This document shows, in pieces, positions 60,142-60,274 of a DNA stretch of 64,000 nucleotides. Source of the DNA: Escherichia phage GEP101. How positions within the stretch are numbered: the stretch's first letter is position 1; the number at the start of each line of letters is the position of its first letter. A program made the translations under genes and the position numbers. The stretch lies in the sequence record PQ036202; one strand, 5' to 3'. The notes beneath the pieces were generated by a model. That model was not told where the DNA came from. It was given only the letters and a program-made list of their open reading frames with translations, and searched no databases.

Positions 60142-60274
60142 ACAGAAGACCGTTTACAGCAAAACTTAAACAATCTATTTCTCCGGTAAAGAAAAGGCGA
60201 AGGTTCGATTCCTTCACTCGGCAGATGTCGAGTTGGTGTAATGGTAGCACTTAAGATGATAAACAACGGTCTGG
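60142..60274 (+). ncRNA. candidate Y-RNA-like RNA: conserved outer helix enclosing a tRNA-like domain without anticodon arm
   Basis: Outer helix AGACCGTT (60147-60154) / AACGGTCT (60265-60272); inside: T-arm-like GAAGG-TTCGATT-CCTTC, closed acceptor-like hairpin ACTCGGC-AGAT-GTCGAGT, D-arm-like GTGT-AATGGTA-GCAC (60199-60250). Confidence 0.4.

What the first reader, a model, noticed from the sequence alone, without database searches (positions are those of the whole stretch)
60142..60274. Candidate Y-RNA: tRNA-like domain lacking an anticodon arm, enclosed by a conserved helix
Within the tRNA array an 8-bp helix (AGACCGTT/AACGGTCT) encloses a T-arm-like hairpin (GAAGG-TTCGATT-CCTTC), a closed acceptor-like helix whose strands are joined by a 4-nt loop (ACTCGGC-AGAT-GTCGAGT), and a D-arm-like hairpin (GTGT-AATGGTA-GCAC). 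The order is circularly permuted relative to a tRNA, with the outer helix in the position of the anticodon stem. This is the arrangement described for bacterial YrlA-type Y RNAs, whose terminal helix binds Rsr/Ro60, and a Ro60-like gene lies 1 kb upstream.
Basis: partly seen in the sequence, partly recalled or inferred. Interest (0 to 1): 0.85.

Follow-up and report, generated by a model that had tools for sequence, protein, structure and literature searches.

The report
Phage Y-like RNAs beside Ro60-like gene
The flagged 138-base stretch is a conserved, tRNA-shaped non-coding RNA with its ends where an anticodon arm would be; it is one of four RNAs in this phage's tRNA cluster that share a terminal module, and that module sits next to a Ro60-like gene in many unrelated phages, so these are probably the missing RNA partners of a phage protein already shown to block a bacterial defence.

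Summary
Window 60140-60277 (+) folds into a 4-bp outer stem, an AGA/G internal loop, an 8-bp helix, then V, T, closed-acceptor and D arms. This is a circularly permuted tRNA shape, as in YrlA-type Y RNAs.

It is not a pseudogene. Homologues in distant phages keep 96.5% of pair cells, and 26 of 27 pairs change on both sides.

The module is the helix plus an invariant NUNCAGCAA, with the 3' strand followed by G.

The upstream ORF (57649-59064) is Pfam DUF2828+DUF7788, not TROVE. Its predicted structure nevertheless matches only Ro60/Rsr across its full length. It is 99% identical to Bas63 gp130, a published counter of the Ppl defence whose authors guessed at Y RNAs but located none.

In 65 loci from distant phages (39-47% protein identity), 66 of 71 strict module hits lie within 2 kb of the gene, all on its strand.

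Formal YrlA membership fails: there is no RF02553 hit and no GNCGAA motif.

Verdict: a new variant of the Ro60/Y RNA system. Protein binding is inferred, not shown.

The parts
57649..59064 (+). Ro60-like protein gene (471 aa; Pfam DUF2828 + DUF7788; orthologue of Bas63 gp130)
   Evidence: Pfam. PHROG 850 'RNA-binding protein'. AF2 model with pLDDT 89 and pTM 0.89. The top 12 Foldseek PDB hits are all Ro60/Rsr, aligned over full length, E about 1e-8, TM 0.47-0.67. MIDAS residues D279/S281/S283 are invariant. 99% identical to bas63_0130.
59083..59203 (+). Two sigma-70-like promoter matches (59083-59111 and 59174-59203) ahead of the tRNA/Y-like RNA array
   Evidence: Consensus scan, 10 of 12 matches each. 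These are consensus matches only.
59399..59477 (+). E1: short Y-like RNA. Outer stem UGAC/GUCA, AGA/G loop, helix AGACCAA/UUGGUCU, UUACAGCAA, one inner hairpin
   Evidence: R1 hit of 46.4 bits. Present in 23 IMG/VR Felixounavirus loci.
59566..59635 (+). E2: short Y-like RNA. Outer stem UUAC/GUAA, AGA/G loop, helix AGACCGU/ACGGUCU, UUACAGCAA, one inner hairpin
   Evidence: R1 hit of 54.2 bits. The orthologue variant UUGC/GCAA is a compensatory change in the outer stem.
60050..60132 (+). E3: short Y-like RNA. Outer stem GAGC/GCUC, AGA/G loop, helix AGACCAA/UUGGUCU, UUACAGCAA, inner hairpins
   Evidence: (z = -2.2). Orthologue variants are listed.
60140..60277 (+). E4: the flagged tRNA-like (YrlA-like) RNA
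   Evidence: R1 self-score 168 bits. Orthologues differ by indels that are not multiples of 3, which excludes the minus-strand ORF 60114-60371.
60140..60162 (+). E4 5' half of the shared module: outer stem 60140-60143, AGA 60144-60146, helix strand 60147-60154, UACAGCAA 60155-60162
   Evidence: The helix sequence varies freely among phages while CAGCAA stays fixed.
60178..60250 (+). E4 tRNA-like core: V hairpin 60178-60194, T arm 60199-60215, closed 7-bp acceptor-like stem 60216-60233, U8/G9 60234-60235, D arm 60236-60250
   Evidence: Among Felixounaviruses the acceptor-like stem occurs as three unrelated sequences that all keep the pairing.
60265..60277 (+). E4 3' half of the module: helix strand 60265-60272, bulged G 60273, outer stem 60274-60277
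60276..60419 (+). Possible fifth associated RNA: a large structured RNA with a roughly 24-bp terminal stem; the inner hairpin 60377-60396 (CAGAC-CUUAAGCAA-GUCUG-G) resembles a closed mini-module
   Evidence: MFE -47.9 kcal/mol, z = -6.2. Compensatory changes among Felixounaviruses. Mini-module pattern. Membership of the system is tentative.

Best explanation
Window 60140-60277 encodes a stable non-coding RNA that works like a YrlA-type Y RNA.

Its two ends pair into a bipartite helix. Together with the invariant AGA/G internal loop and the adjacent single-stranded NUNCAGCAA, this helix forms a module that is probably the docking site for the phage's own Ro60-fold protein (57649-59064, the orthologue of Bas63 gp130). 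The rest of the RNA is a tRNA body (V, T, closed acceptor and D arms) carried where an anticodon loop would be. It probably presents a tRNA-like surface to a second factor, such as a tRNA-processing or modifying enzyme, an exoribonuclease, or a host nuclease.

Three shorter RNAs in the same tRNA array (E1-E3) carry the same module with different inner hairpins. One protein could therefore be loaded with alternative adaptor RNAs. The RNAs are transcribed with the tRNA array from promoters just downstream of the protein gene and are cut out by tRNA-type processing.

Shown here: the structure, its conservation and covariation, the Ro60 fold of the predicted protein structure, and the genomic linkage of module and gene across distant phages.

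Inferred: protein binding, processing, and the role of the tRNA-like domain.

Taken from the literature: the protein counters the Ppl defence.
For: **Structure**
- MFE and consensus folds agree.
- On 27 homologues from several phage lineages, 96.5% of pair cells are paired, against 64% in shuffles and about 40% when partners are slid. 26 of 27 pairs change on both sides.
- The acceptor-like stem occurs as three unrelated sequences.
- The in-silico permuted sequence is called a class-II-like tRNA with the module as a 50-nt insert in the anticodon loop.

**Module**
- 4 exact copies in the window, against 0.25 expected.
- The strict descriptor finds exactly these four sites in 64 kb and none on the minus strand.
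- G-U pairs that appear in orthologues are compatible only with a + strand RNA.

**Protein**
- Ro60 fold and MIDAS motif.

**Linkage of module and gene**
- In 65 loci around distant homologues (39-47% identity) the loose descriptor gives 84 hits on the gene strand, 17 on the other strand and about 5 in shuffles.
- 66 of 71 strict hits lie within 2 kb of the gene, a zone that holds 32% of the sequence. None lies inside the gene. 42 of 65 loci have at least one.
- Loci without any tRNA gene still carry modules: L058, L081, L091, L113, L120.
- The other Felixounavirus neighbour genes (DUF5681, HNH, DUF7338) are absent from all 65 loci.
- Reverse test: of 80 bona fide modules found by DNA pattern, 34 have the gene in the stored locus, and all 34 are on the same strand.

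**Bridge to YrlA**
- The related element L058 5770-5880 matches RF02553 over its full length at 38 bits, the same level as genuine mycobacteriophage YrlAs (36 bits).

**Literature**
- Bas63 gp130 is Ro60-like and counters Ppl, and its authors suspected Y RNAs among the tRNA genes (PMC11482910).
- In Bas63 the elements lie in unannotated gaps, not at annotated tRNAs.
Against: - No binding, expression or processing data exist.
- RF02553 gives no hit on E4 even at E<=10 in a 221-base search.
- The Felixounavirus model R1 finds nothing at canonical Ro60 loci.
- The GNCGAA Rsr-binding motif is absent; the sequence there is ACAGAAGA.
- gp130 alone, expressed from a plasmid or from T7, restores growth on the Ppl strain. 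The anti-Ppl activity therefore does not require these RNAs.
- About half of the modules with at least 3 kb of flank have no DUF2828 gene in the stored locus (13 of 23 have it). The link is strong but not obligatory at short range.
- The outer stem is only weakly supported outside Felixounaviruses (z = -2.2).
Confidence: 0.68

Rival explanations
1. The elements are real structured RNAs of the tRNA operon but act independently of the Ro60-like protein. They could be processing or stability punctuation for the polycistronic tRNA precursor, or free tRNA mimics that decoy host tRNA-directed nucleases or enzymes. Under this reading, linkage to the gene only reflects a shared neighbourhood.
For: - The elements sit between tRNA genes inside one transcription unit.
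- About half of the modules with long flanks have no DUF2828 gene nearby.
- gp130 works in T7 without them.
- In relatives the module occurs fused to tRNA bodies in three different topologies.
Against: - Modules flank the gene in loci with no tRNA genes at all.
- Strand and distance bias towards the gene is extreme.
- The rest of the tRNA array in the window (61700-63800) has no modules.
- The architecture matches that of known Ro60 partners.
Confidence: 0.2
2. The module is the terminal inverted repeat of a small mobile or intron-like insertion that has spread among tRNA genes. E4 would then be a tRNA gene disrupted and rearranged by it.
For: - The ends of each element are inverted repeats, and the copies are multiple and dispersed.
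- In L079 the module sits as a 48-nt insert in the anticodon loop of a tRNA-shaped gene.
Against: - The repeat is asymmetric in a conserved way (AGA against G), and CAGCAA occurs on one side only.
- G-U wobble changes fit an RNA of one strand.
- The helix sequence differs between paralogues while the pairing is kept.
- All four positions are fixed in 23 Felixounavirus loci.
- No transposase, target duplication or empty sites were seen.
Confidence: 0.05
3. E4 is a decayed tRNA pseudogene, or the DNA encodes the minus-strand hypothetical protein annotated in some GenBank records.
For: - Partial tRNA model hit of 22 bits at 60166-60216.
- Minus-strand ORF 60114-60371, annotated as bas63_0137/0138 in Bas63.
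Against: - The helices covary across lineages.
- The permuted order is conserved in phages whose proteins are only about 40% identical.
- Orthologues differ by 1-nt and other non-triplet indels.
Confidence: 0.02

Closest known systems
YrlA (Rfam RF02553; Chen et al. 2014, PMC4201824), including the YrlAs of mycobacteriophages next to TROVE Ro60 genes
   Same: - Same 5'-to-3' order: terminal helix, YUAY (here UUAC), V arm, T arm, closed acceptor-like stem, D arm, return strand.
- tRNA-like T and D loops.
- Encoded within about 1 kb of, and on the same strand as, a Ro60-fold protein gene, next to tRNA genes.
- A shorter sister RNA or RNAs share the protein-side module (compare YrlB).
   Different: - No RF02553 hit.
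- The GNCGAAN0-1G motif is replaced by ACAGAAGA within an AGA/G loop.
- There is an extra invariant CAGCAA.
- The partner protein belongs to DUF2828/DUF7788, not Pfam TROVE, and is not found by tblastn with Ro60.
- There are four paralogues, embedded inside a tRNA array.
Thermus phage phiLo Ro60 with Yrl1/Yrl2 (Hu et al. 2025, PMC12135203; PDB 9KOP, 9L5Y)
   Same: - A phage-encoded Ro60-fold protein with more than one phage-encoded Y-like RNA beside the gene.
- 9KOP is the top structural match of the window protein.
   Different: - The phiLo RNAs were picked by a CGAA motif in a stem-bulge-stem, and the paper nowhere uses the terms YrlA or tRNA-like.
- Sequence identity between the proteins is 16%.
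- Binding is shown for phiLo and not here.
Bas63 gp130 (PhageMaP preprint, PMC11482910)
   Same: The same protein (99% identical) in the same genomic position. It has been shown to counter the Ppl defence and noted as Ro60-like.
   Different: The preprint only guessed that some annotated tRNA genes might be Y RNAs. The RNAs found here are not among the annotated tRNAs. They lie in gaps and under spurious ORFs.
D. radiodurans Yrn1 and metazoan Y RNAs (RF00019)
   Same: - Terminal helix with an internal loop or bulge as the Ro60 site, plus a variable effector module.
- Yrn1 also has tRNA-like features in a different permutation.
   Different: - No sequence or covariance-model similarity.
- The conserved GGUCCGA/UUGACC helix is absent.

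Membership tests
YrlA (RF02553 / Chen 2014) | tRNA-like domain with V, T, closed acceptor-like (AS) and D stem-loops in that 5'-to-3' order, enclosed by a terminal helix | tested here: met
YrlA (RF02553 / Chen 2014) | GNCGAAN0-1G motif near the 5' end (the presumed Rsr site) | tested here: not met
   The sequence at 60142-60149 is ACAGAAGA, and there is no CGAA in the 5' 30 nt. E3 and some E2 orthologues read GCAGAAG, one base off the motif.
YrlA (RF02553 / Chen 2014) | Conserved YUAY at the start of the V region | tested here: met
   UUAC at 60154-60157, directly after the helix. Relatives have UUAC or CUAC, but also UUUC and AUUC.
YrlA (RF02553 / Chen 2014) | Scores with the family covariance model | tested here: not met
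   No RF02553 hit at E<=10 in 2.1-kb or 221-base searches. Positive controls: mycobacteriophages Cali and Sparky score 36 bits. The relatives L058 and L067 score 38 and 36 bits. All of these are below the gathering score of 69.
YrlA (RF02553 / Chen 2014) | Encoded within 4 kb of, and on the same strand as, a Ro60 orthologue | tested here: met
   The gene ends 1,076 nt upstream on the + strand. Its predicted structure has the Ro60 fold.
YrlA (RF02553 / Chen 2014) | The neighbouring protein is a TROVE-domain protein by sequence | tested here: not met
   Pfam gives DUF2828 + DUF7788 only, even at E<=10. tblastn with Ro60 finds 357 phage records, none of them a Felixounavirus. hhalign aligns only the vWA part, at 40% probability.
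YrlA (RF02553 / Chen 2014) | Bound by Ro60/Rsr in vivo; carries tRNA-type modifications; substrate of RNase P and the CCA-adding enzyme | not testable with these tools
   Needs RIP, northern blot, primer extension and enzymatic assays.
tRNA (RF00005) | Cloverleaf with anticodon arm and open acceptor stem | tested here: not met
   22 bits, below the gathering score of 29, and a partial hit only. ARAGORN finds nothing in the native order.
Ro60/Rsr protein (for ORF 57649-59064) | HEAT-repeat ring followed by a vWA domain with a MIDAS motif | tested here: met
   AF2 model with pTM 0.89. The top 12 PDB matches are all Ro60/Rsr over 515-555 columns.
Metazoan Y RNA (RF00019) | Conserved bulged helix GGUCCGA/UUGACC | tested here: not met
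   No Rfam hit, and the motif is absent from the sequence.

The most novel reading that the evidence does not exclude
DUF2828/DUF7788 proteins are a second, phage-borne branch of the Ro60 fold with their own dedicated RNA class. That class is defined by a short module: a helix starting A/G-G, then NUNCAGCAA, with the 3' strand followed by G.

The module is modular and portable. It carries small hairpins, or tRNA bodies in at least three topologies: termini in the anticodon position (Felixounavirus E4), the module replacing the acceptor stem (L112 8329-8428), and the module closed as a hairpin in the anticodon loop of an open-ended, CCA-bearing tRNA shape (L079 7895-8018).

Such RNPs would be a widespread phage device, present in hundreds of viral contigs, for anti-defence or tRNA-pool protection. 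It would be experimentally tractable in Bas63, where the protein already has a phenotype.
Probability: 0.45. Interest if true: 0.85.

Novelty: new variant of a known kind. Interest (0 to 1): 0.72.

Why it matters
Ro60/Y RNA particles are known in animals, bacteria and a few actinophages. Their rules of RNA recognition and their functions remain unclear.

This finding supplies candidate RNA partners for a Ro60-fold protein that already has a genetic phenotype: Bas63 gp130 counters the Ppl defence. The authors of that work could only guess where the RNAs were.

The RNAs define a compact, easily mutated module with a different recognition sequence from the classical CGAA site. The module is present beside homologous genes in many unrelated phages, often next to tRNA arrays.

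Three things follow:
- The question of what phage Ro60 homologues bind becomes directly testable.
- About 140 nt in hundreds of GenBank phage records are currently unannotated or mis-annotated (spurious ORFs over the E3/E4 region in Bas63, and 'tRNA-Thr' under the E4 match in two other records) and could be re-annotated.
- The module offers a natural series of tRNA-body permutations for studying how tRNA mimicry is used.

Tried and rejected
- **Rfam.** Run at gathering and at E-value thresholds on the window. No Y RNA or YrlA hit. I verified that RF02553 exists and works, using mycobacteriophage controls.
- **phmmer against PDB sequences.** Nothing found. Only structure comparison revealed Ro60.
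- **IMG/VR scan with the exact Felixounavirus motif.** Eleven non-Felixounavirus loci proved to be chance or coding matches without a 3' partner. I first read AGGCC and AGACCGA variants as double compensatory changes. On inspection they are one-sided A-U to G-U changes, and the L024 variant is an A-C mismatch. True double changes occur between paralogues, in the E2 outer stem, in the acceptor-like stem, and across distant phages.
- **Outer stem outside Felixounaviruses.** Only marginal support.
- **hhalign of the family profile against human Ro60 (sequence typed from memory).** 40% probability, vWA region only.
- **Co-occurrence of the other neighbouring genes (DUF5681, HNH, DUF7338).** Absent from all 65 distant loci, so they are not the conserved partner.
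- **AcrIIIA1 protein-RNA anti-CRISPR paper.** Checked and found unrelated.
- **Canonical TROVE genes near modules found by pattern.** None.
- **CAGCAA as two Gln codons pairing with phage tRNA-Gln.** Considered, but left as an unsupported curiosity.

Full report
**Source and setting.** The window is a Felixounavirus (FelixO1-type) coliphage. Region 59050-61150 is 96.8% identical to Escherichia phage KEP1 and matches 324 phage records. A tRNA array of 23 ARAGORN-called genes runs on the + strand from 59230 to 63798. The flagged stretch lies in a gap of that array.

**The observation.** The minimum-free-energy and centroid folds contain all of them.
- Outer helix: AGACCGUU 60147-60154 with AACGGUCU 60265-60272.
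- T arm: 60199-60215, with a UUCGAUU loop.
- Closed acceptor-like stem: 7 bp, 60216-60233.
- U8/G9-like UG, then the D arm 60236-60250 with an AAUGGUA loop.

The element is a little larger than reported. It also has a 4-bp outer stem (UUAC 60140-60143 with GUAA 60274-60277), separated from the main helix by an asymmetric loop (AGA on the 5' side, a single G on the 3' side). There is a 5-bp V hairpin at 60178-60194 and a short anticodon-stem-like helix AUCU/AGAU.

Folding energy alone is unremarkable (z = -1.84), so the argument rests on comparative evidence. One direct test of the permuted-tRNA description gave a clear result. I opened the acceptor loop in silico and closed the termini. ARAGORN then called a 92-nt class-II-like tRNA with a 50-nt insert in the anticodon loop, and that insert is exactly the terminal module. 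It calls nothing in the native order.

The 5' motif AGAAGACCNNUUACAGCAA occurs four times exactly in the window, all on the + strand and inside the array, against 0.25 expected. Each copy has a matching 3' strand NNGGUCU followed by G.

This gives four RNAs: E1 59399-59477, E2 59566-59635, E3 60050-60132 and E4 60140-60277. All four fold with the same bipartite terminal helix. Only E4 carries the tRNA body; the others carry short hairpins.

Between paralogues the helix differs by two compensating base pairs (CCAA/UUGG against CCGU/ACGG). The outer stems are four different complementary pairs (UGAC/GUCA, UUAC/GUAA, GAGC/GCUC). A strict descriptor finds exactly these four sites in the 64 kb and none on the minus strand. 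The descriptor is a 7-bp helix whose second base is G, then 3 nt, then C[ACU]GCA[AC], with the complementary strand followed by G.

**Conservation within Felixounaviruses.**
- 23 IMG/VR loci carry all four elements in the same order.
- E4 is covered at 80% or more of its length in 245 GenBank records.
- Among 14 distinct E4 sequences the T and D arms are invariant. The acceptor-like stem occurs as three unrelated sequences that all pair: ACUCGGC/GUCGAGU, ACACG/CGUGU and ACCCUUC/GAAGGGU.
- The V hairpin also switches sequence while keeping its pairing.
- Length differences of 1, 2, 4 and more nt exclude the minus-strand ORF that some records annotate here.
- Single changes in the main helix are mostly A-U to G-U or C-G to U-G. 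These are tolerated only in a + strand RNA. One variant has an A-C mismatch.

**The neighbouring protein.** ORF 57649-59064 matches Pfam DUF2828 and DUF7788, not TROVE, even at E<=10. It has no sequence-level match in the PDB.

An AlphaFold2 model built on a 50-sequence alignment is confident (pLDDT 89, pTM 0.89). Its twelve best Foldseek matches in the PDB are all Ro60/Rsr: Thermus phage phiLo, Xenopus, human and Deinococcus. They are aligned over 515-555 columns, with E about 1e-8 and TM 0.47-0.67. The next matches are isolated vWA domains at E>1e-3. The MIDAS residues D279, S281 and S283 are invariant in the family.

The 'Ro60-like' label is therefore supported by fold, not by sequence-family membership.

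**Link to published work.** The protein is 99% identical to bas63_0130 of phage Bas63 (MZ501086) and sits in the same place, directly upstream of tRNA-Pro.

The PhageMaP preprint (PMC11482910) reports three relevant things:
- gp130 is structurally Ro60-like and counters the Ppl defence.
- gp130 rescues T7 on a Ppl strain when expressed alone.
[quoted passage not shown]'

My model R1, built from the E4 orthologues, places the Bas63 elements in unannotated gaps and under the spurious ORF bas63_0137, not at any annotated tRNA.

**Is the RNA tied to the protein or only to the tRNA array?** I fetched 65 loci around distant homologues of the protein (39-47% identity) from IMG/VR.
- R1 found 59 matches at E<=10, of which 57 are on the gene's strand. 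The best (59, 56 and 42 bits) are full-length tRNA-like elements immediately flanking the gene.
- Read by eye, they share a helix of free sequence, then NUNCAGCAA, then V/T/closed-acceptor/D arms, then the return strand followed by G.
- The loose descriptor gives 84 hits on the gene strand, 17 on the other strand and 4-8 in shuffles.
- In the strict form, 66 of 71 hits lie within 2 kb of the gene (32% of the sequence). None lies inside it, and 42 of 65 loci have at least one.
- Seven loci with no tRNA gene at all still carry one to seven modules.
- The other Felixounavirus neighbour genes are absent from all 65 loci.

On the model-fitted alignment of 27 homologues, 96.5% of pair cells are standard pairs, against 64% in shuffles and about 40% with slid partners. 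26 of 27 pairs show changes on both sides. The fitting biases this count upward, but the margin is large.

**The reverse test** is less clean and I report it as such. Eighty of them have a proper 3' partner, against roughly 4% expected by chance. Of those 80, 34 have the gene in the stored locus, all on the same strand, and 27 are within 2 kb. Among modules with at least 3 kb of flank on both sides, 13 of 23 have the gene. Some of the rest come from contigs known to carry the gene elsewhere (L198/L117, L167/L111, L128/L058). Modules can therefore be dispersed. A whole-genome tabulation is still needed.

**Comparison with YrlA.** Chen et al. 2014 (PMC4201824) define YrlA by a 5' GNCGAAN0-1G motif, a YUAY, V/T/AS/D stem-loops, and a position within 4 kb of a TROVE Ro60 on the same strand.
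- E4 meets the architecture, the YUAY (UUAC) and the position.
- It lacks GNCGAA (it has ACAGAAGA), and its neighbour is not TROVE by sequence.
- RF02553 does not hit E4 at E<=10, even in a 221-base search.
- As a control, RF02553 finds the genuine YrlAs of mycobacteriophages Cali and Sparky upstream of their Ro genes, but only at 36 bits against a gathering score of 69.
- R1 finds nothing at those canonical loci.
- There is a bridge: the DUF2828-linked element L058 5770-5880 matches RF02553 over its full length at 38 bits and also matches R1 at 36 bits. L067 5901-5959 also matches RF02553 (35.8 bits), and R1 hits the enclosing element L067 5854-5989 (33.7 bits).

I therefore file E4 as working like a YrlA, but as a divergent variant rather than a member of the curated family.

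**Mechanism, with its status.**
- Shown: a conserved, covarying RNA structure on the + strand; a module shared by four RNAs; a Ro60 fold in the neighbour's predicted structure; and module-gene linkage across phage lineages.
- Inferred by analogy with Xenopus, Deinococcus, Salmonella and phiLo Ro60-Y RNA complexes: the module (helix, AGA/G loop, CAGCAA) is the protein's docking site, and the variable part is an effector or adaptor domain. In E4 that domain is a tRNA mimic able to engage tRNA-recognising enzymes or nucleases.
- Inferred from promoter-like sites at 59083-59111 and 59174-59203: the RNAs are co-transcribed with the tRNAs and processed out.
- Against an obligatory partnership: gp130 alone suffices against Ppl in T7.

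**Novelty and scoring.** Ro60/Y RNA systems in phages are known (mycobacteriophages, CcrColossus, Bacillus phage G, phiLo). The Ro60-like nature of this very protein is published.

New here are the RNAs themselves, their distinct recognition module, their multiplicity within a tRNA array, and their linkage to the DUF2828 branch in many phages. In relatives the module is also combined with tRNA bodies in other topologies.

I rate this a new variant of a known kind, with interest 0.72. My confidence that it is a real functional RNA is above 0.95. My confidence in the Ro60-partner mechanism is about 0.68.

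Noticed in passing
window 60276-60419 (+): A large, very stable structured RNA lies directly after E4 (MFE -47.9 kcal/mol, z = -6.2). It has a roughly 24-bp terminal stem that covaries among Felixounaviruses. Its inner hairpin 60377-60396 (CAGAC-CUUAAGCAA-GUCUG-G) looks like a closed miniature of the Y-like module. There is no Rfam match.
   Followed up: partly
L079 7895-8018 and 8025-8137: In a distant phage with a DUF2828 gene, there are tRNA-shaped RNAs with an open 7-bp acceptor stem and an ACCA/GCCA tail. 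They carry the module as a closed hairpin plus AUUCAGCAC in the anticodon-loop position. ARAGORN -i calls a tRNA with a 48-nt insert, and the Rfam tRNA model scores 56.9 bits. This is the circular permutation of the window's E4.
   Followed up: partly
L112 8329-8428: The module helix (AGGUUCC/GGAACCU plus UUUCAGCAA) replaces the acceptor stem of an otherwise ordinary D/anticodon/T tRNA body (Rfam tRNA 55.7 bits, model positions 5-66). This is a third topology.
   Followed up: partly
window 7564-7847 (-): Group I intron, Rfam RF00028 at 62.1 bits (above the gathering score).
   Followed up: no
window 61024-61102 (+): tRNA-like gene with almost no D arm and a long variable region (Rfam tRNA 31.7 bits; not called by ARAGORN). 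The orthologous position in Bas63 is annotated tRNA-Arg (AGA). The start of the HNH endonuclease ORF 61076-61468 overlaps its 3' end.
   Followed up: no
window 60660-61020 (+): A 360-nt non-coding gap inside the tRNA array. It holds the best promoter-like match of the region (60673-60701, 11 of 12) and a weak permuted-tmRNA hit (60746-60872, 20 bits, E = 0.16). Its content is unexplained.
   Followed up: no
L127 (Bas63, MZ501086) 8749-9023; window 60114-60371 (-): Public records annotate small minus-strand 'hypothetical proteins' over E3/E4 (bas63_0137 and bas63_0138). In two other records (MZ726792.1 and OQ174508.1) a 'tRNA-Thr' feature lies under the E4 match. These are likely mis-annotations of the RNA genes.
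   Followed up: partly
window 60158-60163 and the equivalent sites in E1-E3: The invariant CAGCAA reads as the two glutamine codons, and the phage encodes both tRNA-Gln(UUG) and tRNA-Gln(CUG) at 63372-63609. This is probably coincidence and was not tested.
   Followed up: no
L097 3528-3680, L107 7407-7550, L115 2340-2471: Module-bearing RNAs beside DUF2828 genes whose inner domain is not tRNA-like. They share another conserved core (GGGCUUUGAUAACCC...), which suggests further cargo types.
   Followed up: no
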